Assembly: GCA_000002445.1 (NCBI GenBank)
Contig: AL929603.2
Location: 928,001 to 992,000 of the forward strand
Origin: Trypanosoma brucei
Taxonomy: Eukaryota
DNA: 64,000 nt
Direction of reading: 5' to 3'
The notes beneath the pieces are model-generated. The model was not told where the DNA came from, made no database searches, and worked only from the letters and a program-made list of their open reading frames with translations. Shown here piece by piece: positions 13,994-62,757 of this stretch. Position 1 is the stretch's first letter. Every line of letters begins with the position of its first letter. The position numbers and the translations under genes are program-made.

Positions 13994-14014
13994 CACACAC
14001 ACACACACACACAC
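13994..14014. repeat. (CA)~10 microsatellite in the spacer (long-type unit; (CA)~5 in short-type units)
   Basis: 'cacacacacacacacacacac' here versus 'cacacacacac' at 17066-17076. Together with the minisatellite copy number this accounts for the 65-nt unit length difference. Confidence 0.85.
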
Positions 14015-14512
14015 CCTGCTCTTCCAGTTGCATGACATCATTACACACTAATTGCAGTGGTGCTCCATTTGCTGTTTGCTGAAACGTTTGATTTATTTCT
14101 TGTCCCTTTCCTCAAGCATCTCTTCGTTTAGGCAACACACCATCTTTATGACAAGTGTTTATTGTAATTGTGGTGTTGTGTGATGCAGCGGTAGATTGGA
14201 CGTGTGTGTACACTTGCAGCAGTGCCTCGCACAAATCGTATCTCCTCCCGGGACTTGTGCATGCAAGTTCCCCAATTTTTAACCCGTGGCCTTGTCACCC
14301 GTTACGCTGTGTCTGCTTTTCGTTTGTTTTGTCTCTTTCTCCCAAATTCCTTTTTGCTTCTACCTTCTGTTTATTGATGCGTGTGATAGTGTTTTCCGCT
14401 ATCGGGACCAGAAGACCATAAGCAAGGTAACATCTGAGGCCAACCCAATTGCCATCATTTTCTTTGTCGTGAATTGTGAAGCAAACCTTTACCAAGCGTT
14501 ATTTGAATAGCG

Positions 14513-16105: not shown

Positions 16106-17575
16106 CGGTCCAACTGAGTGGTGAGCACTCCATCGAGTCTGTGTGGTGATGCTGTGGACGGCGTGTCCCCACTGGTTGGACTGTAGTTTCTTCCCTCCCT
16201 TTTTTTATATTACGTTATGTTTTTTTTTTTCATTTTCCACTCCCTTTCTTTGCCGTTTGCACTTTGCTCGCTTGCATTAAGGATGTCTTGGGGGTCTCTG
16301 GACCGAGTGCTGTAAGGAGGAGGGGGCAATCCTTCCCTATACAAATTACCACATATACTCATTTACACTTATACACATATACGCTTTCTATCAATCCCCA
16401 CTATTTATATATACCGATTCAATTATATGACCATGGAAAAAACATATATACAACTTCCTCCGTATGTAACAGCTTCCCCCGGTACGGCACATAGACCGTC
16501 ACGGGCCTCCCATTGACATAACTTGTGCAAGACTCCTGTTCCCTGCTAATTGCAGGGAAGAGACGGCTAATTGGAACTACACCTTCCTCACCCTCATTGT
16601 TTTCATTGTTTTCTTTTGTATTTCTATTAACCTAAGATAATTTCACTCGCTGTACTTTCTTCCCTCCCTACATCTATATGTTCCCTTATATAACTTTTAT
16701 ACACATGTTTTTTCCTCTCTTTTTCATCCTATACAAACATATAAGCATATCTATATACACGTATATACATACATATATATGTTTGTTTTTATATGCCGTG
16801 ACTTTGTTTCTTTTTCCCCCTTTTTATCTCTTTTTATCCCTTTCTTTCTTTTTTTACTTTTTCATTTTGAATGCCCTTATGTAAGTAAACGCTTCTTACT
16901 AATAGAGGATTGTCCTTGGCAATTTCTCTCTTATCATTTTATTTTCCTCTCCCTTGTTCTTTTCGTTTTATATCATTTTTCATTTCGTTTCATTTACTAT
17001 TTTATTTTACTTTTGTTTCATTTACTATTTTATTTTACTTTTGTTTCTATTTTTGTTTCCGCTGCTCACACACACACCCTGCTCTTCCAGTTGCATGACA
17101 TCATTACACACTAATTGCAGTGGTGCTCCATTTGCTGTTTGCTGAAACGTTTGATTTATTTCTTGTCCCTTTCCTCAAGCATCTCTTCGTTTAGGCAACA
17201 CACCATCTTTATGACAAGTGTTTATTGTAATTGTGGTGTTGTGTGATGCAGCGGTAGATTGGACGTGTGTGTACACTTGCAGCAGTGCCTCGCACAAATC
17301 GTATCTCCTCCCGGGACTTGTGCATGCAAGTTCCCCAATTTTTAACCCGTGGCCTTGTCACCCGTTACGCTGTGTCTGCTTTTCGTTTGTTTTGTCTCTT
17401 TCTCCCAAATTCCTTTTTGCTTCTACCTTCTGTTTATTGATGCGTGTGATAGTGTTTTCCGCTATCGGGACCAGAAGACCATAAGCAAGGTAACATCTGA
17501 GGCCAACCCAATTGCCATCATTTTCTTTGTCGTGAATTGTGAAGCAAACCTCTACCAAGCGTTATTTGAATAGCG

Positions 17576-19168: not shown

Positions 19169-20030
19169 CGGTCCAACTGAGTGGTGAGCACTCCATCGAG
19201 TCTGTGTGGTGATGCTGTGGACGGCGTGTCCCCACTGGTTGGACTGTAGTTTCTTCCCTCCCTTTTTTTATATTACGTTATGTTTTTTTTTTTCATTTTC
19301 CACTCCCTTTCTTTGCCGTTTGCACTTTGCTCGCTTGCATTAAGGATGTCTTGGGGGTCTCTGGACCGAGTGCTGTAAGGAGGAGGGGGCAATCCTTCCC
19401 TATACAAATTACCACATATACTCATTTACACTTATACACATATACGCTTTCTATCAATCCCCACTATTTATATATACCGATTCAATTATATGACCATGGA
19501 AAAAACATATATACAGCTTCCTCCGTATGTAACAGCTTCCCCCGGTACGGCACATAGACCGTCACGGGCCTCCCATTGACATAACTTGTGCAAGACTCCT
19601 GTTCCCTGCTAATTGCAGGGAAGAGACGGCTAATTGGAACTACACCTTCCTCACCCTCATTGTTTTCATTGTTTTCTTTTGTATTTCTATTAACCTAAGA
19701 TAATTTCACTCGCTGTACTTTCTTCCCTCCCTACATCTATATGTTCCCTTATATAACTTTTATACACATGTTTTTTCCTCTCTTTTTCATCCTATACAAA
19801 CATATAAGCATACCTATATACACGTATATACATACATATATATGTTTGTTTTTATATGCCGTGACTTTGTTTCTTTTTTCCCCTTTTTATCTCTTTTTAT
19901 CCCTTTCTTTCTTTTTTTACTTTTTCATTTTGAATGCCCTTATGTAAGTAAATGCTTCTTACTAATAGAGGATTGTCCTTGGCAATTTCTCTCTTATCAT
20001 TTTATTTTCCTCTCCCTTGTTCTTTTCGTT

Positions 20031-20111
20031 TTATATCATTTTTCATTTCGTTTCATTTTATATCATTTTTCATTTCGTTTCATTTTATATCATTTTTCAT
20101 TTCGTTTCATT
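20031..20111. repeat. 27-nt minisatellite x3 (unit 3 spacer)
   Basis: The same 27-mer as at 13841, three copies. The unit 4 spacer has another three copies at 23158-23238. Confidence 0.85.
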
Positions 20112-20702
20112 TACTATTTTATTTTACTTTCGTTTCATTTACTATTTTATTTTACTTTTGTTTCTATTTTTGTTTCCGCTGCTCACACACACACACACAC
20201 ACACCCTGCTCTTCCAGTTGCATGACATCATTACACACTAATTGCAGTGGTGCTCCATTTGCTGTTTGCTGAAACGTTTGATTTATTTCTTGTCCCTTTC
20301 CTCAAGCATCTCTTCGTTTAGGCAACACACCATCTTTATGACAAGTGTTTATTGTAATTGTGGTGTTGTGTGATGCAGCGGTAGATTGGACGTGTGTGTA
20401 CACTTGCAGCAGTGCCTCGCACAAATCGTATCTCCTCCCGGGACTTGTGCATGCAAGTTCCCCAATTTTTAACCCGTGGCCTTGTCACCCGTTACGCTGT
20501 GTCTGCTTTTCGTTTGTTTTGTCTCTTTCTCCCAAATTCCTTTTTGCTTCTACCTTCTGTTTATTGATGCGTGTGATAGTGTTTTCCGCTATCGGGACCA
20601 GAAGACCATAAGCAAGGTAACATCTGAGGCCAACCCAATTGCCATCATTTTCTTTGTCGTGAATTGTGAAGCAAACCTTTACCAAGCGTTATTTGAATAG
20701 CG

Positions 20703-22295
20703 GTGTACACGATGTTTTTGAAGGAGGGAAACAGTGAAATGCGGTTGAGCGGAGCAGCGTTCTTGAAGGGCGCTGTTGATGATATCAATGCATGTGAGTC
20801 CCCTGTTTTATCATCCGGAAGCAGTTTGGTTCTTACAAGTCCTGCTCTGAGCACCTCAGACACGTGCCGATCTGCGATGCGTGAAACCATCCCTTCCGTT
20901 TGTGCTGGCGCAGGCCTCAGCAGTCGCTGCTCAACTGATTGCACTGTGCTGAAGTGTGTGAACCCGCTGCATGTTAAGTTCCAGGAGCCGTCAGGGTTGT
21001 CAGGGGCTGATTCAGTGGACTCGTTTGACTCGTTGGGTGACCTTTCCGAGTTGCATGAGGAACATCAACATGTTTCTTCTGTTGCCTCTGAAAAGCCTTT
21101 GACCCTTCACGATGTGCCGGAATCCGTCCTGTATGGTGCCATTCCATACCTTTCCCTTCCAGACGTCATTGCCTTATCACGGACATGTAAGAAGTTTCAC
21201 AAACTGGTGCAGGGATACTTTGCAGTGAATGAGCATGGCGTGATGAGCATCCCCGCCTTTGACACCCGCAGCTTCATGCAGTACCGTCCGGAGAGGAAAC
21301 CTCCGGTAACGAAGGCGTCATCTATGGAACCCGCAACGAAAGCTTCGGACGTGAAGCCCATCCGTCTGTTTTTTGGCCAGCAACGACGGGACCCACACCC
21401 CTCAGCTCTACGGCGTCTGCTGCGCTTCATTGCACCTGACCTTGTGATTGCTCACATGGAGGCTCACACGAACCCAGTTAACGGTCGTGGCAAAGGCTGC
21501 GCGTGGGTGTTCGCCCTGTCACAATTGGATGCGGAGCGACTGTTACGACTCAGTGGGCGTATCTTCCTTGACATAAATTCTAATGGTGAGGAGGTATACC
21601 TGTTCGCTCCCCCTAACTGCCGAGAGTGGTTGAATGAGCACGCGGAGTGTGCAGTCGCTTCCGCAGTTCGTCCAAGTCACTTGCCACGACAGCCGATGGT
21701 TGTGGAAGCCCCCAGGAAGTCGAGTGCCAAAGTGGAGAAGGGGTTGGAACAATGTGTGCGTCCCCATCCACAACATCGCGGTGTTACGGAGCAGCAGGCA
21801 CCCGTCGCGGCGGCCCAGCAGATGCCCGACTCTGTGGAACCATTGGTACGAGTTGGGTCTCCACAGGATGAGGGCCTGCAGCAGCAGGAGCGGCCGTCCG
21901 AGGCGTGGACGACCAGCAATCATTTGCAAGGCGACTCAACACACGGAAGGCGCAGGTCAGGGGAGGCTCTGCAGTCGGGTGAGTCCACACCTGAGCGTTT
22001 GCAAGCAAGGCGCCGCCCATGGTTGGTTGCGGCGGATGCTTCAGCCACTCAGCGTGCCAGGGAGCTTCGGTTTTGCAGCAATTCCTCAACTTCTCTTCAT
22101 CATGAAATGTGGGGATTCCACCCGGGAGCACGCCTTGGCTCTGGGGTAGGCGGTGACAGATTTATTGCGTGTCCCGAGACGACAACACGCACTGTGCCCC
22201 ACAACGTGTACACAAGCACTATATGGACAGGCCCTAGGCGGTTCCGGCACGACCCGTACGTGTACGGCCCACTGTGCGTACTAGCGGCATCTTAG
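20703..22295 (+). CDS. CFB1: CFB1-like F-box protein, array copy 4 (530 aa)
   Basis: Variant A18/I27 and NHLQGD. Long-type spacer. One synonymous-looking difference from the other copies ('ccggagagg' and 'gtgaagccc' around 21290-21360). Confidence 0.8.
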   Translation: MYTMFLKEGNSEMRLSGAAFLKGAVDDINACESPVLSSGSSLVLTSPALSTSDTCRSAMRETIPSVCAGAGLSSRCSTDCTVLKCVNPLHVKFQEPSGLSGADSVDSFDSLGDLSELHEEHQHVSSVASEKPLTLHDVPESVLYGAIPYLSLPDVIALSRTCKKFHKLVQGYFAVNEHGVMSIPAFDTRSFMQYRPERKPPVTKASSMEPATKASDVKPIRLFFGQQRRDPHPSALRRLLRFIAPDLVIAHMEAHTNPVNGRGKGCAWVFALSQLDAERLLRLSGRIFLDINSNGEEVYLFAPPNCREWLNEHAECAVASAVRPSHLPRQPMVVEAPRKSSAKVEKGLEQCVRPHPQHRGVTEQQAPVAAAQQMPDSVEPLVRVGSPQDEGLQQQERPSEAWTTSNHLQGDSTHGRRRSGEALQSGESTPERLQARRRPWLVAADASATQRARELRFCSNSSTSLHHEMWGFHPGARLGSGVGGDRFIACPETTTRTVPHNVYTSTIWTGPRRFRHDPYVYGPLCVLAAS

Positions 22296-23831
22296 CGGTC
22301 CAACTGAGTGGTGAGCACTCCATCGAGTCTGTGTGGTGATGCTGTGGACGGCGTGTCCCCACTGGTTGGACTGTAGTTTCTTCCCTCCCTTTTTTTATAT
22401 TACGTTATGTTTTTTTTTTTCATTTTCCACTCCCTTTCTTTGCCGTTTGCACTTTGCTCGCTTGCATTAAGGATGTCTTGGGGGTCTCTGGACCGAGTGC
22501 TGTAAGGAGGAGGGGGCAATCCTTCCCTATACAAATTACCACATATACTCATTTACACTTATACACATATACGCTTTCTATCAATCCCCACTATTTATAT
22601 ATACCGATTCAATTATATGACCATGGAAAAAACATATATACAACTTCCTCCGTATGTAACAGCTTCCCCCGGTACGGCACATAGACCGTCACGGGCCTCC
22701 CATTGACATAACTTGTGCAAGACTCCTGTTCCCTGCTAATTGCAGGGAAGAGACGGCTAATTGGAACTACACCTTCCTCACCCTCATTGTTTTCATTGTT
22801 TTCTTTTGTATTTCTATTAACCTAAGATAATTTCACTCGCTGTACTTTCTTCCCTCCCTACATCTATATGTTCCCTTATATAACTTTTATACACATGTTT
22901 TTTCCTCTCTTTTTCATCCTATACAAACATATAAGCATACCTATATACACGTATATACATACATATATATGTTTGTTTTTATATGCCGTGACTTTGTTTC
23001 TTTTTTCCCCTTTTTATCTCTTTTTATCCCTTTCTTTCTTTTTTTACTTTTTCATTTTGAATGCCCTTATGTAAGTAAATGCTTCTTACTAATAGAGGAT
23101 TGTCCTTGGCAATTTCTCTCTTATCATTTTATTTTCCTCTCCCTTGTTCTTTTCGTTTTATATCATTTTTCATTTCGTTTCATTTTATATCATTTTTCAT
23201 TTCGTTTCATTTTATATCATTTTTCATTTCGTTTCATTTACTATTTTATTTTACTTTCGTTTCATTTACTATTTTATTTTACTTTTGTTTCTATTTTTGT
23301 TTCCGCTGCTCACACACACACACACACACACACCCTGCTCTTCCAGTTGCATGACATCATTACACACTAATTGCAGTGGTGCTCCATTTGCTGTTTGCTG
23401 AAACGTTTGATTTATTTCTTGTCCCTTTCCTCAAGCATCTCTTCGTTTAGGCAACACACCATCTTTATGACAAGTGTTTATTGTAATTGTGGTGTTGTGT
23501 GATGCAGCGGTAGATTGGACGTGTGTGTACACTTGCAGCAGTGCCTCGCACAAATCGTATCTCCTCCCGGGACTTGTGCATGCAAGTTCCCCAATTTTTA
23601 ACCCGTGGCCTTGTCACCCGTTACGCTGTGTCTGCTTTTCGTTTGTTTTGTCTCTTTCTCCCAAATTCCTTTTTGCTTCTACCTTCTGTTTATTGATGCG
23701 TGTGATAGTGTTTTCCGCTATCGGGACCAGAAGACCATAAGCAAGGTAACATCTGAGGCCAACCCAATTGCCATCATTTTCTTTGTCGTGAATTGTGAAG
23801 CAAACCTTTACCAAGCGTTATTTGAATAGCG

Positions 23832-25424
23832 GTGTACACGATGTTTTTGAAGGAGGGAAACAGTGAAATGCGGTTGAGCGGAGCTACGTTCTTGAAGGGC
23901 GCTGTTGATGATTTCAATGCATGTGAGTCCCCTGTTTTATCATCCGGAAGCAGTTTGGTTCTTACAAGTCCTGCTCTGAGCACCTCAGACACGTGCCGAT
24001 CTGCGATGCGTGAAACCATCCCTTCCGTTTGTGCTGGCGCAGGCCTCAGCAGTCGCTGCTCAACTGATTGCACTGTGCTGAAGTGTGTGAACCCGCTGCA
24101 TGTTAAGTTCCAGGAGCCGTCAGGGTTGTCAGGGGCTGATTCAGTGGACTCGTTTGACTCGTTGGGTGACCTTTCCGAGTTGCATGAGGAACATCAACAT
24201 GTTTCTTCTGTTGCCTCTGAAAAGCCTTTGACCCTTCACGATGTGCCGGAATCCGTCCTGTATGGTGCCATTCCATACCTTTCCCTTCCAGACGTCATTG
24301 CCTTATCACGGACATGTAAGAAGTTTCACAAACTGGTGCAGGGATACTTTGCAGTGAATGAGCATGGCGTGATGAGCATCCCCGCCTTTGACACCCGCAG
24401 CTTCATGCAGTACCGTCCAGAGAGGAAACCTCCGGTAACGAAGGCGTCATCTATGGAACCCGCAACGAAAGCTTCGGACGTGAAACCCATCCGTCTGTTT
24501 TTTGGCCAGCAACGACGGGACCCACACCCCTCAGCTCTACGGCGTCTGCTGCGCTTCATTGCACCTGACCTTGTGATTGCTCACATGGAGGCTCACACGA
24601 ACCCAGTTAACGGTCGTGGCAAAGGCTGCGCGTGGGTGTTCGCCCTGTCACAATTGGATGCGGAGCGACTGTTACGACTCAGTGGGCGTATCTTCCTTGA
24701 CATAAATTCTAATGGTGAGGAGGTATACCTGTTCGCTCCCCCTAACTGCCGAGAGTGGTTGAATGAGCACGCGGAGTGTGCAGTCGCTTCCGCAGTTCGT
24801 CCAAGTCACTTGCCACGACAGCCGATGGTTGTGGAAGCCCCCAGGAAGTCGAGTGCCAAAGTGGAGAAGGGGTTGGAACAATGTGTGCGTCCCCATCCAC
24901 AACATCGCGGTGTTACGGAGCAGCAGGCACCCGTCGCGGCGGCCCAGCAGATGCCCGACTCTGTGGAACCATTGGTACGAGTTGGGTCTCCACAGGATGA
25001 GGGCCTGCAGCAGCAGGAGCGGCCGTCCGAGGCGTGGACGACCAGCAATCATTTGCAAGGCGACTCAACACACGGAAGGCGCAGGTCAGGGGAGGCTCTG
25101 CAGTCGGGTGAGTCCACACCTGAGCGTTTGCAAGCAAGGCGCCGCCCATGGTTGGTTGCGGCGGATGCTTCAGCCACTCAGCGTGCCAGGGAACTTCGGT
25201 TTTGCAGCAATTCCTCAACTTCTCTTCATCATGAAATGTGGGGATTCCACCCGGGAGCACGCCTTGGCTCTGGGGTAGGCGGTGACAGATTTATTGCGTG
25301 TCCCGAGACGACAACACGCACTGTGCCCCACAACGTGTACACAAGCACTATATGGACAGGCCCTAGGCGGTTCCGGCACGACCCGTACGTGTACGGCCCA
25401 CTGTGCGTACTAGCGGCATCTTAG
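23832..25424 (+). CDS. CFB1: CFB1-like F-box protein, array copy 5 (530 aa)
   Basis: Variant T18/F27 and NHLQGD. Short-type spacer. Confidence 0.8.
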   Translation: MYTMFLKEGNSEMRLSGATFLKGAVDDFNACESPVLSSGSSLVLTSPALSTSDTCRSAMRETIPSVCAGAGLSSRCSTDCTVLKCVNPLHVKFQEPSGLSGADSVDSFDSLGDLSELHEEHQHVSSVASEKPLTLHDVPESVLYGAIPYLSLPDVIALSRTCKKFHKLVQGYFAVNEHGVMSIPAFDTRSFMQYRPERKPPVTKASSMEPATKASDVKPIRLFFGQQRRDPHPSALRRLLRFIAPDLVIAHMEAHTNPVNGRGKGCAWVFALSQLDAERLLRLSGRIFLDINSNGEEVYLFAPPNCREWLNEHAECAVASAVRPSHLPRQPMVVEAPRKSSAKVEKGLEQCVRPHPQHRGVTEQQAPVAAAQQMPDSVEPLVRVGSPQDEGLQQQERPSEAWTTSNHLQGDSTHGRRRSGEALQSGESTPERLQARRRPWLVAADASATQRARELRFCSNSSTSLHHEMWGFHPGARLGSGVGGDRFIACPETTTRTVPHNVYTSTIWTGPRRFRHDPYVYGPLCVLAAS

Positions 25425-26894
25425 CGGTCCAACTGAGTGGTGAGCACTCCATCGAGTCTGTGTGGTGATGCTGTGGACGGCGTGTCCCCACTGGTTGGAC
25501 TGTAGTTTCTTCCCTCCCTTTTTTTATATTACGTTATGTTTTTTTTTTTCATTTTCCACTCCCTTTCTTTGCCGTTTGCACTTTGCTCGCTTGCATTAAG
25601 GATGTCTTGGGGGTCTCTGGACCGAGTGCTGTAAGGAGGAGGGGGCAATCCTTCCCTATACAAATTACCACATATACTCATTTACACTTATACACATATA
25701 CGCTTTCTATCAATCCCCACTATTTATATATACCGATTCAATTATATGACCATGGAAAAAACATATATACAACTTCCTCCGTATGTAACAGCTTCCCCCG
25801 GTACGGCACATAGACCGTCACGGGCCTCCCATTGACATAACTTGTGCAAGACTCCTGTTCCCTGCTAATTGCAGGGAAGAGACGGCTAATTGGAACTACA
25901 CCTTCCTCACCCTCATTGTTTTCATTGTTTTCTTTTGTATTTCTATTAACCTAAGATAATTTCACTCGCTGTACTTTCTTCCCTCCCTACATCTATATGT
26001 TCCCTTATATAACTTTTATACACATGTTTTTTCCTCTCTTTTTCATCCTATACAAACATATAAGCATATCTATATACACGTATATACATACATATATATG
26101 TTTGTTTTTATATGCCGTGACTTTGTTTCTTTTTCCCCCTTTTTATCTCTTTTTATCCCTTTCTTTCTTTTTTTACTTTTTCATTTTGAATGCCCTTATG
26201 TAAGTAAACGCTTCTTACTAATAGAGGATTGTCCTTGGCAATTTCTCTCTTATCATTTTATTTTCCTCTCCCTTGTTCTTTTCGTTTTATATCATTTTTC
26301 ATTTCGTTTCATTTACTATTTTATTTTACTTTTGTTTCATTTACTATTTTATTTTACTTTTGTTTCTATTTTTGTTTCCGCTGCTCACACACACACCCTG
26401 CTCTTCCAGTTGCATGACATCATTACACACTAATTGCAGTGGTGCTCCATTTGCTGTTTGCTGAAACGTTTGATTTATTTCTTGTCCCTTTCCTCAAGCA
26501 TCTCTTCGTTTAGGCAACACACCATCTTTATGACAAGTGTTTATTGTAATTGTGGTGTTGTGTGATGCAGCGGTAGATTGGACGTGTGTGTACACTTGCA
26601 GCAGTGCCTCGCACAAATCGTATCTCCTCCCGGGACTTGTGCATGCAAGTTCCCCAATTTTTAACCCGTGGCCTTGTCACCCGTTACGCTGTGTCTGCTT
26701 TTCGTTTGTTTTGTCTCTTTCTCCCAAATTCCTTTTTGCTTCTACCTTCTGTTTATTGATGCGTGTGATAGTGTTTTCCGCTATCGGAACCAGAAGACCA
26801 TAAGCAAGGTAACATCTGAGGCCAACCCAATTGCCATCATTTTCTTTGTCGTGAATTGTGAAGCAAACCTCTACCAAGCGTTATTTGAATAGCG

Positions 26895-28334
26895 GTGTAC
26901 ACGATGTCCTTGGAGGAGGGAAGCAGTGAAATGCGGTTGAGCGGAGCAGCGTTCTTGAAGGGCGCTGTTGATGATTTCCATGCGGGTAAATCTTCTGCTT
27001 TGTCATCTGGTAGCAGTCCTGCGCTTACTGTGTCTGTTTTTAGTACGCCGGCGTTCGGTTGTTCGACATTTGGTAACTCATCGCCGGTTTGTGGCGGCCA
27101 TGAAGCCAACTACGAAGCTGTTGCGCTCCGTGATGCCCCCTTGAGCAGTCGAGGTATCGTTGCTTGGGATAGGATGAAGTGTGAGAGCTCACTTTTTGTG
27201 AAACTTCAGGCGTCTTCAGGGTTGTCCGGAACCGACTCAGAGGACATAGCTAACCCGTTAGTGGATCTTTCGGATGCTTGCGGAACAGATGCCCTTTCCG
27301 AGTTGCGTGAGGAACATCAACATATTTCTTCTGTTGCCTCTGAAAAGCCTTTGACCCTTCACGATGTGCCGGAATCCGTCCTGTATGGTGCCATTCCATA
27401 CCTTTCCCTTCCAGACGTCATTGCCTTATCACGGACATGTAAGAAGTTTCACAAACTGGTGCAGGGATACTTTGCAGTGAATGAGCATGGCGTGATGAGC
27501 ATCCCCGCCTTTGACACCCGCAGCTTCATGCAGTACCGTCCAGAGAGGAAACCTCCGGTAACGAAGGTCACAGCCGCGGGACCCGCCCCTAAAATTCCTG
27601 GTGTGAAACCCATCCGTCTGTTTTTTGGCCAGCAACGACGGGACGTTTATCCCTCAGCTCTACGGCGTCTGCTGCGCTTCATTGCACCTGACCTTGTTAT
27701 CACTCACATGGAGGCTCACGTGAATGAGGCAACTGGTCGGGGCAAAGGCTGCGCATGGGTTATTGTTCCTTCAGTGTTGGAGGCGAAACGACTGTTACGA
27801 CTCAGTGGGCGTATCTTCCTTGACATAAATTCTAATGGTGAGGAGGTATACCTGTTCGCTCCCCCTAACTGCCGAGAGTGGTTAAGTGAGTACGCCGACT
27901 ACGTTGTCTCCTCAACAACTCGTGCAAGCCATCTTCCGTACTTACCAATGGTTGTTGGAGTACCGAAGAAGGAGTGTATATATGTACGTGAGCTTTTGGC
28001 ACCTTATATTTATGATCCCAATCGCGGTGACTGTCCGCCATATGCCGACGCGGTTTCGGAGTTTAAGGGCTTATTGGAGGATCATGCGTTACTTCCAGTA
28101 TCTTCCGCCGTATCGGGCATTATTCCTCCTTTTGCTTCTGTTCCTCCTATGGTGCAGACTTGCATGTTTTCTTCCTCTTTTGATCGTAGAGAATACTTTG
28201 AAGCCCCCAACGTTTATACCAGCACGGTGTGGACTGGCTTCAGTCGGTACCGCCATGATCCGTATGTGTTTGATCCACTACGGGAGCCAACGAACATGTT
28301 ACCGCTGCATGAAGTGGATTACGCTGAGATGTAG
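26895..28334 (+). CDS. CFB2: CFB2-like divergent F-box paralog (479 aa): mosaic of CFB1-identical blocks and unique sequence, with C-terminal 'RYRHDPYVF' MKT1-binding-type motif
   Basis: The ~370 nt upstream (26528-26894) is near-identical to the CFB1 upstream region. The protein N-terminus is partly related ('MYTMSLEEGSSEMRLSGAAFLKGAVDDFH'). Central blocks 27296-27565 and 27600-27890 are near-identical to CFB1 (F-box and RRM-like region). The N- and C-terminal thirds are unique, and so is the downstream flank. Confidence 0.75.
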   Translation: MYTMSLEEGSSEMRLSGAAFLKGAVDDFHAGKSSALSSGSSPALTVSVFSTPAFGCSTFGNSSPVCGGHEANYEAVALRDAPLSSRGIVAWDRMKCESSLFVKLQASSGLSGTDSEDIANPLVDLSDACGTDALSELREEHQHISSVASEKPLTLHDVPESVLYGAIPYLSLPDVIALSRTCKKFHKLVQGYFAVNEHGVMSIPAFDTRSFMQYRPERKPPVTKVTAAGPAPKIPGVKPIRLFFGQQRRDVYPSALRRLLRFIAPDLVITHMEAHVNEATGRGKGCAWVIVPSVLEAKRLLRLSGRIFLDINSNGEEVYLFAPPNCREWLSEYADYVVSSTTRASHLPYLPMVVGVPKKECIYVRELLAPYIYDPNRGDCPPYADAVSEFKGLLEDHALLPVSSAVSGIIPPFASVPPMVQTCMFSSSFDRREYFEAPNVYTSTVWTGFSRYRHDPYVFDPLREPTNMLPLHEVDYAEM

Positions 28335-50930: not shown

Positions 50931-51542
50931 TCAGGGAAGATAATGGTATAACTATATTTTGCTCTGTGTAAAATTTGGTGCTTCCGAGTCGTATGATGTG
51001 GGCACACGTGCGTGTTTGTGGAGGTGATGTTAAAAGAAATAAAGGAGGGGGAAACTGCATATGCTGTAAGGATATTCAGCTTGGAAACTGAAGAGCTTTC
51101 ATCACTCAAAGGTGAGATGTTTTAAACTTTCTTTGGCGTATGCTCCACCGCCTATGGATTCACTTAGGCCTCTCCCCCTCCTCTTTTCCCTTCTCTCTCT
51201 TACGCTCATTCATTCATTCATTCATTTTAATTTTTATGTGCGGGTTCTTGTGATCCGCATTGGTATTCTCACCTTCCACTTCAATGGCCGTGGTAAACCG
51301 CCCTCCTGCTGCGCGCCATTCATCTTTTTAACATATGTTTTACGATCATGTTGTAAGTGTGCTTGTGATTCAGTTTCTCTCTTTCTCTTCATTATTTCTT
51401 TCATATTTTCGTGATGCGCTACGCAAATATCCGCATTCGGAAATAACAATGCGAATTGTGCACAATAATAATAATAATAATATATAATATTAACAATAAA
51501 ATAGGCGAAGGCATTGAAGTGCTTTTTTTTCTTGGTGGGGGC

Positions 51543-53555
51543 ATGGCGGCCTTCTTCGGTTCGCTGGTAAAGTCTTTTATTCTTCCCAAGCCTTCTCCTA
51601 CTTATAGTGCAGACAAACACCCTGGTAAACTGGTGCATATACCGAGGGTTGACTGGGATACACGGAAGGAAAATGGCACCTTTACGTACGGGTTGCTACT
51701 GCTCGACACGGCTGCTAAATTCATCATCATCTACGCTCACACAAATGCCGTAGACGTTGCGATGGTGTTTGAAACAATGTCATATGTAAGTAAGCGTACC
51801 TCTACCTCTGTACTGCTTGTGGAATACACGGGTTACGGAATTGCATATGGTGAGACGACAGAGCGTTCCATGAATGAAGATGTGCTGTCGGCGTATTATT
51901 ACGCTGTGCGTCACATGCGGGTGCCCGCTGATCGCGTAGTGCTGATGGGCTGTTCCATCGGTACGGGGCCATCAGCTCAAGTATGTGCGCTTCTGCAAGG
52001 TGAAGAGGAGGTTCCAGCACTTCTTGTGCTTCAATCCCCTTTTACATCACTAAAGGAATGCGCAAATGATATGACGCCCAATGTGGGCTCAATTGTGGGC
52101 TACTTGGGTTATGATTGGTTTCGTACCATTGACGTGGTTGCGCAGGTGCGATGCCCCATCATTATTCACCACGGGCAATGCGATGATGTGGTGCCGTTTG
52201 AACACGCGCAGCAGCTAAAACGGACCATCGAAGAGGCAACACCACCCGGTGTAGTGGAGCTCCATGCGGAACCGAATCGCGGTCACAACGATCTTCCCAC
52301 AGAGAGCGCGAATCGTTTTATAGATAAGAAACTACGATCGTTTGGGCAGCCGCGATGTCTACAACCCAGATGCCGGCCCTATCATTTAGTAAACCCATCC
52401 ATTTACGAGTATCTCTTCTGCGTGAAAGAGCAACCCATAATCAACATGGAAGAACTTCTAAAGCACTGGAATGAAACTTTATCCATAGGTTCCTTCGCCT
52501 ATAAGCGAGAGAAGCTGTACGTACTTCTCACAGCTTCCGTGTCACTCTTCGCTATGCGATGTGCCAGGGCGTGGCAACATTACGCGGGAAGTCGGAAGCG
52601 GCATTACGGTAACAGTTATAGCGCCAGTTGCAATGGCAGTGTTGGTGTTGTTGGTGGTAGTGGTGGTAACGGTGATGGCAGTGGCAGCGGTGCAGAGGAG
52701 TTATATTGTGCTAAGGAGGATATCATTAAGAGGTGTTTAGCCTGTTGGGGAAGTCCTCTTGGTGCCTACTTAAGTGTACGTGGCCCTCCAATCCGTCACA
52801 AGATATTTGGCGTTCACTTGGATGTGTGTGTGGAGAATGTGGTGGCTAGCGATGGTATTAGCAATGAATCGGGTTTCCGTTCTTGTGGAGGCAATCCCTA
52901 TTTCCTGAAGCGTGATACAGGGGAGGCATACTTGAGCGTAGCGGAGTTGGAGTTTACGCATGGCTTAACAAGAAGCGTCGCTGCAGCCATGTCCACCGCT
53001 CCCACTCTTGGCGGTGAGGAAGATGAAATGGACGTGTTTCTTCAGAAGAATGTGGTTACGAGAATACAGACACAATGTGAGCGTGTGGTTGCGTTTCTTG
53101 ATAGTAATGAGTGGGAGAATATGTTGGAAGTTCTCGTGAGATTTGGCCAGCGAGCACCATCGTTTCTCAGCAGTAAAGCGCTGCAGTATTATTCGGAGTG
53201 CTCATCTCAGGCACGCTTCGGTGACAGTTGTGGGACCGGTGCCGCGTGTTGCGGTAATGATAGCGGCCCGGCACCACGCAGCGAAGTGATGGAAACCATT
53301 GAAGATGTTGATGAGTGGCTCAGGCCGTGGGTTGTTAGTCCTGACACGCGAATGCAATTGGGAACGGAGGTGCCTTGGGATTATTACCTTTTGAAGGCTC
53401 GTCTTTGTGTCATTGAATACACGCCGCTGGGACCCGATACGAGTTGGGAGGAGGCGCGACGCATTACTGACGCGTGGAGGGTTGTGAAGATAATTCATGA
53501 CCTCTTTTGTAGTTACTCCCGCCGTGTCCTCCACCCCTCTTTCAGCGCGTCATGA
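51543..53555 (+). CDS. Alpha/beta-hydrolase, ABHD17/FAM108-like serine hydrolase domain (N-terminal ~300 aa) fused to a ~370-aa C-terminal extension
   Basis: - 'MAAFFGSLVKSFILPKPSPTY…' N-terminus, as in ABHD17-type depalmitoylases.
- Nucleophile elbow 'GCSIGTG' (G-x-S-x-G).
- 'IIHHGQCDDVVPFEHAQ…NRGHND' (acid and His region).
The start is at the second ATG; the upstream in-frame codons are poly-Ile from an AT-run. The C-terminal extension has a G/S-rich linker. Confidence 0.65.
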   Translation: MAAFFGSLVKSFILPKPSPTYSADKHPGKLVHIPRVDWDTRKENGTFTYGLLLLDTAAKFIIIYAHTNAVDVAMVFETMSYVSKRTSTSVLLVEYTGYGIAYGETTERSMNEDVLSAYYYAVRHMRVPADRVVLMGCSIGTGPSAQVCALLQGEEEVPALLVLQSPFTSLKECANDMTPNVGSIVGYLGYDWFRTIDVVAQVRCPIIIHHGQCDDVVPFEHAQQLKRTIEEATPPGVVELHAEPNRGHNDLPTESANRFIDKKLRSFGQPRCLQPRCRPYHLVNPSIYEYLFCVKEQPIINMEELLKHWNETLSIGSFAYKREKLYVLLTASVSLFAMRCARAWQHYAGSRKRHYGNSYSASCNGSVGVVGGSGGNGDGSGSGAEELYCAKEDIIKRCLACWGSPLGAYLSVRGPPIRHKIFGVHLDVCVENVVASDGISNESGFRSCGGNPYFLKRDTGEAYLSVAELEFTHGLTRSVAAAMSTAPTLGGEEDEMDVFLQKNVVTRIQTQCERVVAFLDSNEWENMLEVLVRFGQRAPSFLSSKALQYYSECSSQARFGDSCGTGAACCGNDSGPAPRSEVMETIEDVDEWLRPWVVSPDTRMQLGTEVPWDYYLLKARLCVIEYTPLGPDTSWEEARRITDAWRVVKIIHDLFCSYSRRVLHPSFSAS

Positions 53556-55948: not shown

Positions 55949-56447
55949 GTTTTATACGCCGAGGCGGCATAGACGCGATTTCCATAGGGATGTTTTGTTT
56001 TTGTTTTTTACTTTCCCTGCTTTTATATCATTATTGTTAGTCTTTTTTTTCTTTTTTGAACGATTTTCTTCCGCATTTTTATTTTGAATATCAGGCACGC
56101 TAGAATTTTTAATTTCATAGAAAAATGTACGTTTTGAGCTTCTGTATTGCGTATTCTCGTGAAATGAGTTCATTCCTTTCTTTTTTTAAAAAAATTGTTG
56201 ATCCTTTTTTTTTCCCCCTCCCCTGTTCCTACCGGCCCCATGTCTTTTAACCATTGTGCTTGTGACCCATCGCTTGTAATGAAAATAACATTTTCTTTCC
56301 ATATAAATTTGTTTGTAATGTATCTGTATTTGTGTGTGTTTACTTTAGGCGTAGTGACACACACACACACAAAAAAAAAAAAATAGGAGGGGAAACCTGT
56401 AAGTCCAGCCCAACCGCGTGAGGTTGCGTATAGTTTGAGCCACTGCA

Positions 56448-57101
56448 GTGGGCATTTCAATGCGGTTGTCTAATCGTTGCCTCATAAAGCGGGATTTTGA
56501 TGCTTGGGCTTATAACATATACTGGCCGCAGAAAAAGGCGTTTCTTCCACTAATGGGCTTCGCGAGTTTAACAGTTGAGGATATTAAGTTTGCATACAAT
56601 GCGTGGTGTCTCTTGCGTCTCGCAATGTTTTATGGTGCCACACACCCAAAGGTTCTCAGTCCATTAGTGAACTGCACTCCATCAATGGACATCATACATG
56701 GCGGAAATCGAATTTTTTACATGCACTCGCAAGTGTCCACTCCCCTTTCACAACGAAAAATAAAAGTTGCACTAACTCCCTGCCATCCCGGGGCACAATT
56801 ACTGCAGTCATTTCCGTGGGAAACTGCAGCTCAACAGGGCGGTTGGGGTTCAACGGAGGGCGATGATAATTGCGGCGTGGAGATAATTCTCGGAATGGAA
56901 AATGGCATGTCTGAAGAGGTACGTGCGGGATGTGATTATTGCCTTTACGTGCCTCAATACGGTTCTGTAGGTTCACTTTCAATGCTTTCAGCAATGGCAA
57001 TTGCCGTACATTTGGCCTTCTGTGCGCGGTGGATGAGGCGGGGTACTGAAGTGAATGAACGACTTGTACCATTTTTGGGGGCATATGCCTTTGAGCAGTG
57101 A
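56448..57101 (+). CDS. SpoU/TrmH-like RNA 2'-O-methyltransferase-fold protein (217 aa; motif 1 degenerate)
   Basis: Motif 2-like 'VEIILGMENGMSEEV' and motif 3-like 'DYCLYVPQYGSVGSLSMLSAMAIAVHLAF' (the SpoU family consensus is lvlGnEg.Gls … v.IPm.g…SLNvsvAaaI). The motif 1 position is degenerate ('AYNAWCLLRLAMFYGAT' versus NxGaiiRta.afG). Confidence 0.5.
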   Translation: MGISMRLSNRCLIKRDFDAWAYNIYWPQKKAFLPLMGFASLTVEDIKFAYNAWCLLRLAMFYGATHPKVLSPLVNCTPSMDIIHGGNRIFYMHSQVSTPLSQRKIKVALTPCHPGAQLLQSFPWETAAQQGGWGSTEGDDNCGVEIILGMENGMSEEVRAGCDYCLYVPQYGSVGSLSMLSAMAIAVHLAFCARWMRRGTEVNERLVPFLGAYAFEQ

Positions 57102-57912
57102 CGCCAATGGCACAATTGCGCCCTGTACGCTTCCACATGAGAAAAATCTTATACACTTTAGTAATGAAGAAATTCGAGCTTTACTTGCGGAGAGGCGCCT
57201 GCAGTATCGAATGCAGCTTTCCGTGATGGTATATAATGAGTTTGGTGATCGCAACATTGGGGCCATCATGCGCAATGCAAATGTGTTCAATTGCGAGGAA
57301 CTTATTGTTCTGAATCGTCGCAAGTTTAACCGGCGGGGTGCCGTTGGTACACATCATGTGCTCACGACGACATTTCACGCTACTTTGCACGACAGGAGTT
57401 GTCAGTCACGTTTGCAGGGTTATGTGTTGTGGCTACTGCATCAATATTATCCATATCTGAAAGTTTATGGTGCATCTCCATCTCCATCTAATGATAATGA
57501 TAATGATAATGATGTTGCCACTTTCCTTCGACACGACAACATTCACTTGCAACGTTGGCTTCGATGTAATGGTTACCAACACAATGAAGCGGGCCCAATC
57601 GCTAATATAACTGCAAGTTTTGGAACTGGTGACCACTGGGTTCATCTTATTGGAAAGGAAGTTTATCTTGACGATGAGAGTTCACTTGTGTCCGCAGTAA
57701 AGTCAGCTGCTGCAGCGGGATATCGCGGCATAATGTTAGTGGTTCCTGAAGAGGGCGCAACATTACCATTAGAATTGGTGAAAGAGTCACAACGCGTAGT
57801 TTTTATTGCACATCCCAATCGACTTGCACGGGATGTGCAGCGTGGACTTAATGGTGCACTCGCGACGGCGGTTGCTCTCGAGCGCCTTCGAACCGCAATC
57901 GATAATATTTAA
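57055..57912 (+). CDS. SpoU/TrmH-like RNA 2'-O-methyltransferase (285 aa ORF; overlaps the preceding ORF by 47 nt in the +1 frame)
   Basis: - Motif 1 'NEFGDRNIGAIMRNANVF'.
- Motif 2-like 'IMLVVPEEGATLP'.
- Motif 3-like 'RGLNGALATAVALERL'.
The true start could be an internal ATG at 57211 or 57223. Confidence 0.55.
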   Translation: MNDLYHFWGHMPLSSDANGTIAPCTLPHEKNLIHFSNEEIRALLAERRLQYRMQLSVMVYNEFGDRNIGAIMRNANVFNCEELIVLNRRKFNRRGAVGTHHVLTTTFHATLHDRSCQSRLQGYVLWLLHQYYPYLKVYGASPSPSNDNDNDNDVATFLRHDNIHLQRWLRCNGYQHNEAGPIANITASFGTGDHWVHLIGKEVYLDDESSLVSAVKSAAAAGYRGIMLVVPEEGATLPLELVKESQRVVFIAHPNRLARDVQRGLNGALATAVALERLRTAIDNI

Positions 57913-58717: not shown

Positions 58718-59620
58718 ATGTCGGAACCCGTTGATCAGTTATTAAAAACGTACCTTCAGTCATGTGATTATTCAATTGATTCCTCTTCCAGGAAGAAAGC
58801 ACTTGAAATGTCATGTTTGTGTTGCCATGTTTATGGTGGTGAAGGACATCTTCCTGATGGTTGGCTCGTATGCACTCGTGAAGTTGAGGGACTTAAAAAA
58901 AGGGACGAGAGTTGCGGTTTTCGATCTGAATTGTACACAAATGGTTCCAAATATGTACTCGCCTTTGCGGGAGTTCACGACAACCGAAGCGCTTTTGAAA
59001 GTGCGCTGCAATTAGTTGGAAAATCGGATGCGTACAAGTTAGCAGCGGCAAATGCGGCGTTGGTGGTTTCCGCTTTTGGATTATCAAATGTTTCATTCAC
59101 GGGGCATTCGCTTGGCGGTGGTTTGGCGACTGCAGCTGCTGTTTTTACCGGCGCTCCCGCCATTACCTTCAATCCCGCTTGGCTTTCATCATCCACAAGA
59201 TCCGAGTTGTTAAAATTCCCTTCGGTTGAGGTAATTAATTATGTTATTTTTGCCGAAGCGCTTGATGTGTTCCAACGACATCCGCAACTTCTGAACTCCG
59301 TCCCTGCTGGAGCTTTTTTTGCTGGACTTCTCAGTAACAGCAAAATTCAACAGTTTGGCACATTTAAATATATTTACTGTAAAGTTATACATGACAGGCC
59401 ACATTATATTGATGCTCACCTCATAGAGACAATTATTGAGGAATTACGGAAGGAAAATGGAGAAAAAATTTCAGCTTCCGACCTGGCCGCTTCATCACTC
59501 CATGAAGATGTTATGGGAGGTATGGCACAACTTGTGCAACAAAAGATGTCAGTTATTATGGAAGTTGTTGCGTCTGTCATGTCAAAGCAATTTTCTGCCG
59601 GAGGGTTCGGTTCTTCATGA
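58718..59620 (+). CDS. Alpha/beta-hydrolase, lipase-like protein with GHSLGG nucleophile elbow (300 aa)
   Basis: 'VSFTGHSLGGGLATAAAVFTGAP' is a classic G-H-S-x-G lipase or esterase serine motif. 'AFAGVHDNRSAFES' upstream resembles the preceding strand of the fold. Confidence 0.55.
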   Translation: MSEPVDQLLKTYLQSCDYSIDSSSRKKALEMSCLCCHVYGGEGHLPDGWLVCTREVEGLKKRDESCGFRSELYTNGSKYVLAFAGVHDNRSAFESALQLVGKSDAYKLAAANAALVVSAFGLSNVSFTGHSLGGGLATAAAVFTGAPAITFNPAWLSSSTRSELLKFPSVEVINYVIFAEALDVFQRHPQLLNSVPAGAFFAGLLSNSKIQQFGTFKYIYCKVIHDRPHYIDAHLIETIIEELRKENGEKISASDLAASSLHEDVMGGMAQLVQQKMSVIMEVVASVMSKQFSAGGFGSS

Positions 59621-61770: not shown

Positions 61771-62757
61771 ATGAAAGTTACGATAGCGGAATTGGTTGTT
61801 TTGTTATTTTCTGTAATTTGTATTGATGGGAAGGAGGACAATGGGTGTACGTTGATAACAGATTATCACGGTGATGCACCTTTAAGTGAGTCCGTATGTT
61901 ATCTCAGTTGTCTTTCGAATGCATTAAATAAATTGTACAGCGAGGGAGAGAGGAGGCTGTTTGTGAATGAGGAAGTGTATGCAAATGCATTTCGTATATT
62001 GGATGATATGGAAGGAAGAGCAGGTGAAAGTGTTAGATATTTGAGTATTATTAGTGTTGCGATGGTAAAGGAAAATAATAGGTTGGAAAAGCTTATATCT
62101 CATGGAAATGCAATGGGAGACCTTGTAGCTAAGGCTGGTGGATTATTTGCTGAGGTTAATGAAAGTGTGAGGGCAGTGAGGAAAGAAATACCTGGTGCCC
62201 TTATAAAAGTGAATAAATATTATACGGCTATTGCTGAGATCACAAGGACTGTGTGGGATGATGTTAAAGCTGTGGAAAGTGGAAAGCACGAATGTAAAGA
62301 TCAAGAGTTTAGAGGTGTTAAAGAGTTTGACGTTACATGTGGAGATAACGCATGTCTGCTGGCACATGGTGTGAGTGAGGGCGCCCTCAAACATTATAAG
62401 AATGGGCTTCTTGAAATAAACGTGATGACAAAGTCCGGTGGGGTGAGCAAATGCCTCAACTTACCACGCAATAACCTGTATAAGAGTGGTGCGGTAAACA
62501 ATTCAAACAAAGTACTGGATTGGCGTGATGATGCTGACACTGTCACTCACTTTCTACTCAAACTGAAAATACGGGACATCTTTAGCACCCTCATCGCACC
62601 TTTTGCTGCTGGACAACCACCTTCTGCACTCTTGGACATGATGGCCAATATCACTTCACTTTACTCCCGTTTCAATGAAGTCCACAGGAGTTTCACTTCG
62701 TTGCTGTTCGACACGAATAGCATTGATAATGTGAAAAGCACTAATTCTACCATCTGA
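61771..62757 (+). CDS. Putative secreted or surface protein with N-terminal signal peptide (328 aa), possibly related to a VSG or surface-glycoprotein N-terminal domain
   Basis: - Hydrophobic N-terminus 'MKVTIAELVVLLFSVICIDG' followed by a Cys-containing, helix-rich sequence with several N-x-S/T sites.
- No C-terminal hydrophobic or GPI-like tail.
- Codon and base composition (AT-rich, G+T-skewed flanks) differ from the neighbouring housekeeping genes. Confidence 0.45.
   Translation: MKVTIAELVVLLFSVICIDGKEDNGCTLITDYHGDAPLSESVCYLSCLSNALNKLYSEGERRLFVNEEVYANAFRILDDMEGRAGESVRYLSIISVAMVKENNRLEKLISHGNAMGDLVAKAGGLFAEVNESVRAVRKEIPGALIKVNKYYTAIAEITRTVWDDVKAVESGKHECKDQEFRGVKEFDVTCGDNACLLAHGVSEGALKHYKNGLLEINVMTKSGGVSKCLNLPRNNLYKSGAVNNSNKVLDWRDDADTVTHFLLKLKIRDIFSTLIAPFAAGQPPSALLDMMANITSLYSRFNEVHRSFTSLLFDTNSIDNVKSTNSTI

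What the first reader, a model, noticed from the sequence alone, without database searches (positions are those of the whole stretch)
56448..57912. Two adjacent SpoU/TrmH-like methyltransferase ORFs overlapping by 47 nt in different frames, with no intervening trans-splicing region
Both ORFs carry recognisable SpoU motifs 2 and 3. The first has a degenerate motif 1 (a possibly inactive paralog). The second has a good motif 1. Kinetoplastid mRNAs are individually trans-spliced, so overlapping genes are not expected. There is no polypyrimidine tract between the stop of ORF1 (57101) and the first plausible internal ATGs of ORF2 (57211 or 57223). There are three possibilities. One is a single ancestral tandem-SpoU fusion gene carrying a +1 frameshift, either a sequencing error, strain pseudogenisation or genuine recoding. 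Another is an inactive/active SpoU heterodimer pair, as seen in trypanosome mitochondrial ribosome assembly factors. The third is a spurious upstream ORF.
Basis: partly seen in the sequence, partly recalled or inferred. Interest (0 to 1): 0.6.

Follow-up and report, generated by a model that had tools for sequence, protein, structure and literature searches.

The report
One methyltransferase gene split by frameshift
The two overlapping "genes" are the two halves of one conserved trypanosome RNA-methyltransferase gene, broken in this reference sequence by a single extra G, so the finding is an ordinary frameshift (sequencing error or strain-private mutation) and not a new gene arrangement.

Summary
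Both ORFs exist exactly as described: 56448-57101 and 57055-57912, with a 47-nt overlap and ORF2 in the +1 frame. They are not two genes. The window is Trypanosoma brucei brucei TREU927 chromosome 1. Every orthologue found is one protein of 438-495 aa spanning both ORFs. This holds in T. b. gambiense, T. equiperdum, T. congolense, T. cruzi, Leishmania and Perkinsela.

DNA alignment with seven T. brucei-group assemblies puts the difference at one base. The window has GGGGG at 57077-57081 and all seven others have GGGG. Removing one G restores a 483-aa ORF reading ...VPFLGHMPLSS....

The intact protein is a fusion of two SpoU/TrmH domains. Only the fused protein passes Pfam's cut-off, and AlphaFold gives a confident compact model (pTM 0.89). 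This architecture has already been described, from AlphaFold models, as a "doubly knotted" SpoU-SpoU protein, with kinetoplastid proteins as examples.

Conserved programmed recoding and a two-gene heterodimer are both refuted. I could not decide whether the extra G is a reference error or a real TREU927-private null allele, because no independent TREU927 data were reachable. Low interest.

The parts
56460..57912 (+). Single tandem-SpoU methyltransferase gene, orthologue of T. b. gambiense CBH09167.1 (481 aa). The frame is broken in this record; deleting one G gives a 483-aa ORF.
   Evidence: The orthologue passes Pfam PF00588 at 51.3 bits with 2 stretches.
57077..57081 (+). Frameshift site: a G5 run directly after a T5 run (57072-57076). 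All seven other T. brucei-group assemblies have G4 here. The 0-frame stop follows at 57099-57101.
56562..57035 (+). N-terminal SpoU domain (residues about 35-192), which is the coding content of ORF1.
   Evidence: Pfam hit; TrmJ/RlmB/TrmH alignments over motifs 2-3; AF2 secondary structure.
56598..56636 (+). N-domain motif 1, NAWCLLRLAMFYG. Asn47 and Arg53 are kept; the canonical Gly is replaced by Trp.
   Evidence: Alignment of 34 orthologues.
56889..57011 (+). N-domain motif 2 (LGMENGMS) and motif 3 (VPQYGSVGSLSMLSAMAIAVH). These are the best-conserved knot/SAM-pocket motifs in the protein. The motif-3 Asn is Ser in trypanosomatids but Asn in prokinetoplastid relatives.
57036..57207 (+). Low-confidence inter-domain linker (residues about 193-249). 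It contains the frameshift and the conserved GHMPLS / LPHE segments.
   Evidence: pLDDT below 50 at residues 213-225; alignment.
57208..57909 (+). C-terminal SpoU domain, with an insert of about 70 aa. This is the coding content of ORF2 from its residue 52 onward.
57247..57291 (+). C-domain motif 1, DRNIGAIMRNANVFN. Invariant Asn265 and Arg271 at canonical spacing.
57727..57888 (+). C-domain motif 2 (GIMLVVPEEG) and motif 3 (QRGLNGALATAVALERL).
   Evidence: fold.
57479..57511 (+). In-frame SP/ND microsatellite inside the C-domain insert. Its length varies between strains.
56202..56224 (+). Longest upstream polypyrimidine tract (23 nt). It is a candidate trans-splicing signal for the single mRNA; this is inference only.

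Best explanation
This is one gene, not two. It encodes a protein of about 481-483 aa made of two fused SpoU/TrmH-type SPOUT domains joined by a flexible linker. The gene is conserved as a single ORF across Kinetoplastea.

In this record (T. b. brucei TREU927 chromosome 1) one extra G in a T5G5 homopolymer junction (57077-57081) shifts the frame inside the linker. A mechanical ORF scan therefore reports the N-domain as ORF1, which stops 7 codons after the shift. It reports the C-domain as ORF2, whose first 8 'codons' are out-of-frame N-domain linker sequence.

How the intact protein most likely works is inferred, not shown. The two domains probably pack against each other like the two subunits of a SpoU homodimer, giving a monomeric pseudo-dimer that methylates the 2'-O-ribose of an RNA. 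The best-conserved elements are the N-domain SAM-pocket motifs 2/3 and the C-domain motif-1 Asn/Arg. In TrmH-type dimers these two elements come from opposite subunits of one active site, so at least one composite catalytic site is plausibly intact.

The cause of the extra G is unresolved. I put about 50% on a base-count error in the deposited sequence and about 45% on a real, recent TREU927-private (possibly heterozygous) null allele. Either way the overlap is not a designed gene arrangement. The confidence given here applies to the single-gene, one-extra-G claim, not to the cause.
For: - The neighbouring ORFs are exact matches to TREU927 proteins CAJ16686.1, CAJ16689.1 (PLA1), CAJ16682.1 and CAJ16693.1.
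- All 34 ORF2 homologues are single proteins of 392-495 aa carrying PF00588.
- The 90%-identity cluster contains intact 481/485-aa proteins from T. b. gambiense DAL972, T. equiperdum OVI, T. b. equiperdum and four Logan assemblies.
- DNA alignments show G4 in 7 of 7 relatives against G5 in the window.
- Removing one G gives a 483-aa ORF.
- Downstream of the shift, TREU927 carries no further disabling change. Its only other private changes are one synonymous, one Ile-to-Asn in a low-complexity repeat, and a repeat-length change.
- Within the T. brucei group there are 9 nonsynonymous and 11 synonymous polymorphic codons, none of them in a motif.
- The fused protein passes Pfam at 51.3 bits with 2 stretches, and 34 of 34 orthologues match.
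- Tandem relatives occur in Perkinsela and Prokinetoplastina PhF-6.
- PMC11187310 lists the PF00588-PF00588 fusion as the largest class of predicted doubly knotted proteins. Its examples Q4DMW6, Q4D5S2 and A4I142 have domains at 35-185 / 255-407, and the models look like a fused TrmH-type dimer.
Against: - No independent TREU927 data could be reached. Neither the frameshifted ORFs nor the repaired protein occur in the 15-billion-protein collection, and TREU927 is not in the gene-position index. Error and real allele therefore cannot be separated.
- I had no model coordinates or PAE, so the intramolecular dimer geometry rests on the high pTM and on published models of orthologues.
- The two halves are not significantly similar to each other by profile comparison (hhalign E = 0.21), so an internal duplication is not shown.
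- The motif-3 Asn is Ser in the trypanosomatid N-domain, and the motif-3 Ser is Gly in the C-domain, so catalytic competence is uncertain.
- I did not verify by sequence that Q4DMW6 is the direct orthologue.
Confidence: 0.93

Rival explanations
1. The extra G is a real mutation private to TREU927, or to one of its two alleles. The reference strain would then carry a null or truncated allele that makes only the 213-aa N-domain plus 6 foreign residues. That would be a natural knockout of a conserved RNA methyltransferase. This is a sub-case of the main explanation and concerns only the cause of the extra G.
For: The TREU927 haplotype has other private variants in this gene (56921A, 57509A, repeat length), so private polymorphism does occur here. 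No TREU927 protein for this locus exists in NCBI/UniRef-derived data under any start codon tested. The TREU927-based AlphaFold survey in PMC11187310 lists only one T. brucei tandem SpoU, Q381U1, whose domain boundaries match a different subgroup from this gene's. Both points fit annotators having treated the locus as a pseudogene.
Against: The gene is kept intact across all Kinetoplastea sampled and in 7 of 7 close relatives. There is no secondary decay downstream of the shift. The change is a single-base length difference in a homopolymer, which is also a typical base-calling error.
Confidence: 0.45
2. The extra G is an error in the deposited reference sequence (a miscounted G-run). The living strain would then have an intact 483-aa gene. 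This too is a sub-case of the main explanation.
For: The difference is exactly one base in a T5G5 homopolymer junction. It is private to this record. The rest of the reading frame is pristine. The family is under purifying selection. A T. cruzi TCC gene model for the same gene (P0001) is likewise truncated by an apparent frameshift, which shows that such breaks do arise in assemblies of this gene.
Against: The record is finished sequence (a 1,064,672-bp contig), for which error rates are low (background knowledge). I found no independent TREU927 reads or assemblies that show G4.
Confidence: 0.5
3. The frameshift is real and the full-length protein is still made, by programmed +1 ribosomal frameshifting at UUU-UUG-GGG-G. 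Alternatively, the two halves are translated separately and reassemble as a SPOUT heterodimer.
For: SPOUT domains normally work as non-covalent dimers, so a split pseudo-dimer could in principle reassemble. An in-frame ATG for the C-half lies at 57085, 16 nt before the ORF1 stop.
Against: The shift site is absent from every relative, so it cannot be a conserved recoding signal. No polypyrimidine tract or other trans-splicing signal lies between the halves. From background knowledge, no nuclear +1 programmed frameshift is known in trypanosomatids, and reinitiation after a 213-codon ORF is inefficient in eukaryotes.
Confidence: 0.02
4. These are two bona fide adjacent genes, an inactive and an active SpoU paralogue forming a heterodimer, as in the mitoribosome assembly intermediates. 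Or ORF1 is simply a spurious ORF.
For: Each ORF alone has a partial SpoU hit. Trypanosome mito-LSU assembly intermediates do contain SpoU-family factors (PMC7703582, PMC7957421).
Confidence: 0.01

Closest known systems
Kinetoplastid PF00588-PF00588 'doubly knotted' SpoU-SpoU fusion proteins (Perlinska et al. 2024, PMC11187310; examples Q4DMW6 and Q4D5S2, whose accession series I take from memory to be T. cruzi, and A4I142, likewise L. infantum)
   Same: Two SpoU domains in one chain of about 470 aa. The published domain boundaries (35-185 and about 255 onward) match those found here. AlphaFold models are compact and look like a fused TrmH-type dimer. Function has not been characterised.
   Different: In this TREU927 record the ORF is interrupted by one extra G, so no protein entry exists for it. 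I did not confirm direct orthology to Q4DMW6 by sequence. The paper's only T. brucei entry (Q381U1) has domain boundaries matching a different subgroup (53-212 / 321-473).
T. b. gambiense DAL972 'SpoU type methylase, putative' (CBH09167.1, 481 aa), with T. equiperdum SCU64377.1 and T. b. equiperdum RHW74192.1
   Same: Same locus and synteny (S9 peptidase, 467-aa hypothetical protein, this gene, phospholipase A1). The DNA is about 99% identical to the Logan relative aligned pairwise, and only 20 codons vary across all eight sequences.
   Different: Those records have G4 and an uninterrupted ORF; the window has G5. There are also small in-frame differences in the SP/ND repeat.
Single-domain SpoU/TrmH 2'-O-ribose methyltransferases (TrmH 1v2x, TrmJ 4cnf/5gm8, RlmB 1gz0, AviRb 1x7o, human MRM3 7oi6_z)
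   Different: Here the two 'subunits' are covalently fused and have diverged from each other (hhalign E 0.21). Each has one non-canonical motif-3 residue. The C-domain carries an insert of about 70 aa. Sequence similarity to any solved chain is marginal (best E 0.006).
Trypanosome mitoribosome LSU assembly factors of the SpoU family (mt-LAF5/mt-LAF6, 'MRM'; PDB 6yxy, 7aoi, 7am2)
   Same: SpoU fold in a kinetoplastid. At least one of these factors is catalytically dead and acts as a scaffold (PMC7957421).
TrmD-Tm1570 fusion of Calditerrivibrio nitroreducens (PDB 8b1n)
   Same: Two SPOUT knots in one polypeptide, experimentally verified.
   Different: It fuses two different SPOUT families. The domains barely touch within a chain, and the protein works as a homodimer rather than as an intramolecular pseudo-dimer (PMC11187310).

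Membership tests
SpoU/TrmH methyltransferase family (Pfam PF00588) | Profile match above Pfam's gathering score | tested here: met
   The intact orthologue P0039 scores 51.3 bits against a cut-off of 29.7, with 2 stretches, and 34 of 34 orthologues match. The split ORFs alone fall below the cut-off at 24.2 and 29.1 bits.
SpoU/TrmH methyltransferase family (Pfam PF00588) | SPOUT alpha/beta fold in each domain | tested here: met
SpoU/TrmH methyltransferase family (Pfam PF00588) | Deep trefoil knot forming the SAM pocket | not testable with these tools
PMC11187310 reports 3_1#3_1 knots for the kinetoplastid PF00588-PF00588 models.
SpoU/TrmH methyltransferase family (Pfam PF00588) | Catalytic and SAM-binding residues of motifs 1-3: Asn and Arg at +6 spacing, the motif-2 Glu, and the motif-3 Ser-x-Asn (TrmH numbering from background knowledge) | tested here: inconclusive
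   N-domain: N47, R53, E147 and S172 are present, but the motif-3 Asn is Ser174. C-domain: N265, R271, E428/E429 and N462 are present, but the motif-3 Ser is Gly460. Prokinetoplastid relatives keep a canonical SSLN in the N-domain.
SpoU/TrmH methyltransferase family (Pfam PF00588) | SAM-dependent 2'-O-methylation of RNA | not testable with these tools
   This needs biochemistry. No substrate is known.
PF00588-PF00588 single-chain pseudo-dimer (doubly knotted SPOUT fusions, PMC11187310) | Two SpoU domains in one polypeptide, conserved as one ORF | tested here: met
   In this window the condition holds only after removing one G.
PF00588-PF00588 single-chain pseudo-dimer (doubly knotted SPOUT fusions, PMC11187310) | The two domains pack like a SpoU homodimer (perpendicular arrangement) | tested here: inconclusive
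   A pTM of 0.89 for a two-domain 481-aa chain implies a confident fixed arrangement. The interface geometry could not be inspected. Published models of the family show it.
Programmed +1 ribosomal frameshift (recoding) genes | The shift site and the two-frame organisation are conserved among orthologues | tested here: not met
   Seven of seven T. brucei-group sequences and all more distant orthologues are in one frame. The G5 run is private to this record.
Trypanosome mitoribosome assembly SpoU factors (mt-LAF5/6, MRM) | Sequence identity or clear homology to the chains in PDB 6yxy, 7aoi or 7am2 | tested here: not met
   phmmer and profile searches of all PDB chains return only weak bacterial TrmJ, RlmB and TrmH hits (best E 0.006) and no trypanosome chain.

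The most novel reading that the evidence does not exclude
The G5 run is real and homozygous in TREU927, and the strain still obtains function from the locus. This could be by low-level +1 slippage at the UUU-UUG-GGG-G junction. It could also be by separate translation of the C-half (ATG at 57085) followed by non-covalent reassembly of the two SPOUT domains, which would be a natural 'un-fusion' of a pseudo-dimer. A weaker but likelier version is that TREU927 is simply a natural knockout, showing that this pan-kinetoplastid enzyme is dispensable through the whole life cycle.
Probability: 0.03. Interest if true: 0.5.

Novelty: already known. Interest (0 to 1): 0.12.

Why it matters
The practical point is annotation. 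A conserved kinetoplastid RNA-methyltransferase gene appears to be absent from the protein set of the main T. brucei reference strain: no TREU927 protein for this locus was found under any start codon tested. Resources that rely on those gene models could therefore miss it. This includes proteomics databases, AlphaFold DB surveys, genome-wide tagging and RNAi screens. One read-mapping check would settle whether the reference needs a one-base correction or whether TREU927 is a natural (possibly heterozygous) null.

The protein itself, a fused and probably doubly knotted SpoU pseudo-dimer, is a curiosity that is already in the literature. Its RNA target and cellular location are still unknown.

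Tried and rejected
- Exact-sequence look-ups in the 15-billion-protein collection were all negative. I tried ORF1 (three starts), ORF2 (four starts) and the repaired protein (two starts). So there is no independent evidence for either version of the TREU927 allele.
- Looking up the TREU927 contig through its neighbouring genes failed. TREU927 is not in the gene-position index, and only the T. equiperdum contig was returned.
- The homology search with ORF1 alone returned a single T. cruzi fragment and missed the obvious 98%-identical proteins. I treated this as a limit of the word index and did not use it as evidence of absence.
- Literature searches for Tb927.1.4780-4825 identifiers located only the upstream S9 peptidase, Tb927.1.4780. 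The T. b. gambiense genome paper does not mention this locus. A search for the chromosome I paper found nothing.
- An hhalign comparison of the N-half against the C-half was not significant (E 0.21), although it aligned motifs 2/3 in register. Internal duplication therefore stays an inference.
- The afdb50 fold library was unavailable.
- The bacterial promoter/terminator scan of the junction found nothing and is not relevant to a trypanosome.
- The minus-strand ORFs that overlap the locus (154 aa and 111 aa) have no Pfam hit. I regard them as chance ORFs.

Full report
**Observation.** The ORF scan confirms the coordinates. ORF1 runs 56448..57101 (217 aa from a GTG; the first ATG is at 56460). 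ORF2 runs 57055..57912 (285 aa). They overlap by 47 nt, and ORF2 lies in the +1 frame relative to ORF1. Each ORF gives a partial, sub-threshold Pfam SpoU_methylase match. ORF1 matches profile positions 95-141 (motifs 2-3) at 24.2 bits. ORF2 matches positions 2-77 (motif 1) at 29.1 bits. The cut-off is 29.7. No pyrimidine run of 8 nt or more lies between 56750 and 57520, while both flanking intergenic regions carry tracts of 15-24 nt. One small correction: the in-frame ATGs of ORF2 are at 57085, 57211 and 57226, and 57223 is a GTG.

**Source of the window.** Four neighbouring ORFs are exact matches to proteins of Trypanosoma brucei brucei TREU927, on a contig of 1,064,672 bp. They include CAJ16686.1 just upstream and phospholipase A1 (CAJ16689.1) just downstream. 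The S9 peptidase ORF at 51456..53555 fits Tb927.1.4780. The window is therefore chromosome 1 of the reference strain.

**One gene, not two.** A homology search with ORF2 returned 34 proteins. Apart from one 392-aa Logan protein, they are 438-495 aa long, and all carry PF00588. They come from T. congolense, T. vivax, T. grayi, T. cruzi, T. rangeli, T. theileri, Leishmania, Leptomonas, Phytomonas, Strigomonas, Angomonas and others. The best hit is 98% identical and 485 aa long, and it spans both ORFs. Its 90% cluster holds intact 481/485-aa proteins from T. b. gambiense DAL972 (CBH09167.1, 'SpoU type methylase, putative'), T. equiperdum OVI, T. b. equiperdum and four Logan assemblies.

- **Synteny.** The order is the same in all three annotated relatives: peptidase, 467-aa protein, this gene, phospholipase.
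- **The single-base difference.** At the DNA level the window is 99% identical to the first Logan relative aligned pairwise. In the 8-sequence alignment, the only frame-changing difference is one extra G: GGGGG at 57077-57081 against GGGG in all seven other sequences, directly after a T5 run.
- **Repair.** Deleting one G yields an uninterrupted 483-aa ORF from the ATG at 56460, reading ...ERLVPFLGHMPLSSD... as in the relatives.
- **What the ORFs really are.** ORF1 is the N-terminal half plus six out-of-frame residues. ORF2's first eight residues are out-of-frame linker sequence.

**What the intact protein is.** The full-length orthologue passes Pfam's SpoU threshold (51.3 bits, two stretches), and all 34 aligned orthologues match.

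The alignment shows two SpoU-like motif sets:
- **N-domain:** YNAWSLLRLAMFFG, with Asn and Arg at the canonical +6 spacing; LVLGMENGLS; IPQYGSIGSLSM.
- **C-domain:** DRNIGAVMRNANVFN; AVPEEG; QRGLNxALSTAIALERL.

The structural evidence is consistent with two SPOUT domains:
- AlphaFold2 on this alignment gives a confident model: pLDDT 82.9 and pTM 0.89, with a disordered linker around residues 213-225.

The two halves are not significantly similar to each other by profile comparison (E 0.21), although motifs 2/3 align in register.

An exhaustive HMM search found 858 relatives, including further tandem proteins. The named ones are from Perkinsela and Prokinetoplastina PhF-6, so the fusion predates the divergence of Kinetoplastea. 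In those distant relatives the N-domain has canonical GHENxG and SSLN motifs, and the C-domain keeps the motif-1 Asn/Arg.

**How it probably works (inferred).** SpoU enzymes are obligate dimers. In TrmH the catalytic motif-1 Arg of one subunit acts on the SAM pocket (motifs 2-3) of the other; this comes from background knowledge of the family. Three things point to a monomeric pseudo-dimer with at least one composite active site: the fused chain, the high pTM, and the complementary conservation pattern (the N-domain pocket and the C-domain motif 1 are the best conserved). The short basic N-terminus hints at a mitochondrial location, but I did not test this. The RNA substrate is unknown.

The architecture itself has been published. 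Perlinska et al. 2024 (PMC11187310) list PF00588-PF00588 fusions as the largest class of predicted doubly knotted proteins.
- Their example proteins Q4DMW6, Q4D5S2 and A4I142 have domains at 35-185 and 255-407, which is the same layout as here.
- They describe the models as a fused TrmH-like dimer.
- Their only T. brucei entry, Q381U1, has domain boundaries matching a different subgroup. This fits TREU927 having no protein entry for this locus.

**Cause of the frameshift.**
- **Conserved programmed recoding is excluded.** The shift site is private to this record.
- **Error versus real allele cannot be decided here.**
  - TREU927 has three other private changes in the gene: one synonymous, one Ile-to-Asn in a low-complexity repeat, and a repeat-length change. 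There is no further damage downstream of the shift.
  - Polymorphism in the T. brucei group (9 nonsynonymous and 11 synonymous codons, none in a motif) indicates continuing constraint.
  - No independent TREU927 assembly or protein could be reached.
  - I estimate roughly equal odds for a miscounted G-run in the deposited sequence and for a recent, possibly heterozygous, null allele.

**Verdict.** The heterodimer-pair and spurious-ORF readings are wrong. The feature is an ordinary one-base frame break in a known, annotated gene family. Its main value is as an annotation flag for the reference strain.

Noticed in passing
window 11385-28334: A tandem array of about 3.13-kb units on the + strand, with five identical-length 530-aa ORFs and a sixth of 479 aa. 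None has a Pfam hit. It matches the six-copy 'hypothetical protein Tb927.1.4540' array listed as recombining in the T. b. gambiense genome paper (PMC2854126, Table 2).
   Followed up: partly
P0001 (T. cruzi C3747_78g136, 175 aa): This T. cruzi gene model for the same gene matches the orthologues for about 86 residues and then diverges into unrelated sequence. That looks like another assembly- or strain-specific frameshift in this gene.
   Followed up: no
window 57479-57511: An in-frame SP/ND microsatellite inside the C-domain insert varies in length between T. brucei-group strains: SPSPS-NDNDNDND in TREU927, SPS-NDNDNDID in most others, and SPSPS-NDNDID in T. equiperdum OVI.
   Followed up: partly
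L001, L003, L005, L006 (Logan contigs ERR7929161/164/162/157): All four independent contigs begin at exactly the same base, equivalent to window 56412. That is 28 nt downstream of an A13 run. Most of them end in poly-T or TA/TG repeats. This probably reflects k-mer assembly breaks at low-complexity sequence and not transcript ends.
   Followed up: no
window 58718-59620 and L002 5290-6192: The downstream gene is phospholipase A1 (exact match to CAJ16689.1). Its DAL972 counterpart in the same 90%-identity cluster is named 'expression site-associated gene (ESAG) protein' in the T. b. gambiense annotation, so the naming is inconsistent. A separate ESAG1-like ORF lies at 61771-62757.
   Followed up: no
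literature (PMC11187310, Table S2): Three proteins whose accession series I take to be T. cruzi and T. brucei (Q4CYG6, Q4D7N4, Q381U1) have domains at 53-212 and about 317-473. A fourth (A4I7Y6) has different boundaries, 171-276 / 430-582. This suggests at least one further tandem SpoU-SpoU paralogue group besides this gene. Its relation to this gene was not examined.
   Followed up: no
The word-indexed homology search with ORF1 (217 aa) collected only 80 candidates and missed the 98%-identical full-length proteins that the ORF2 search found. Absence of hits from that tool is not reliable for this query.
   Followed up: partly
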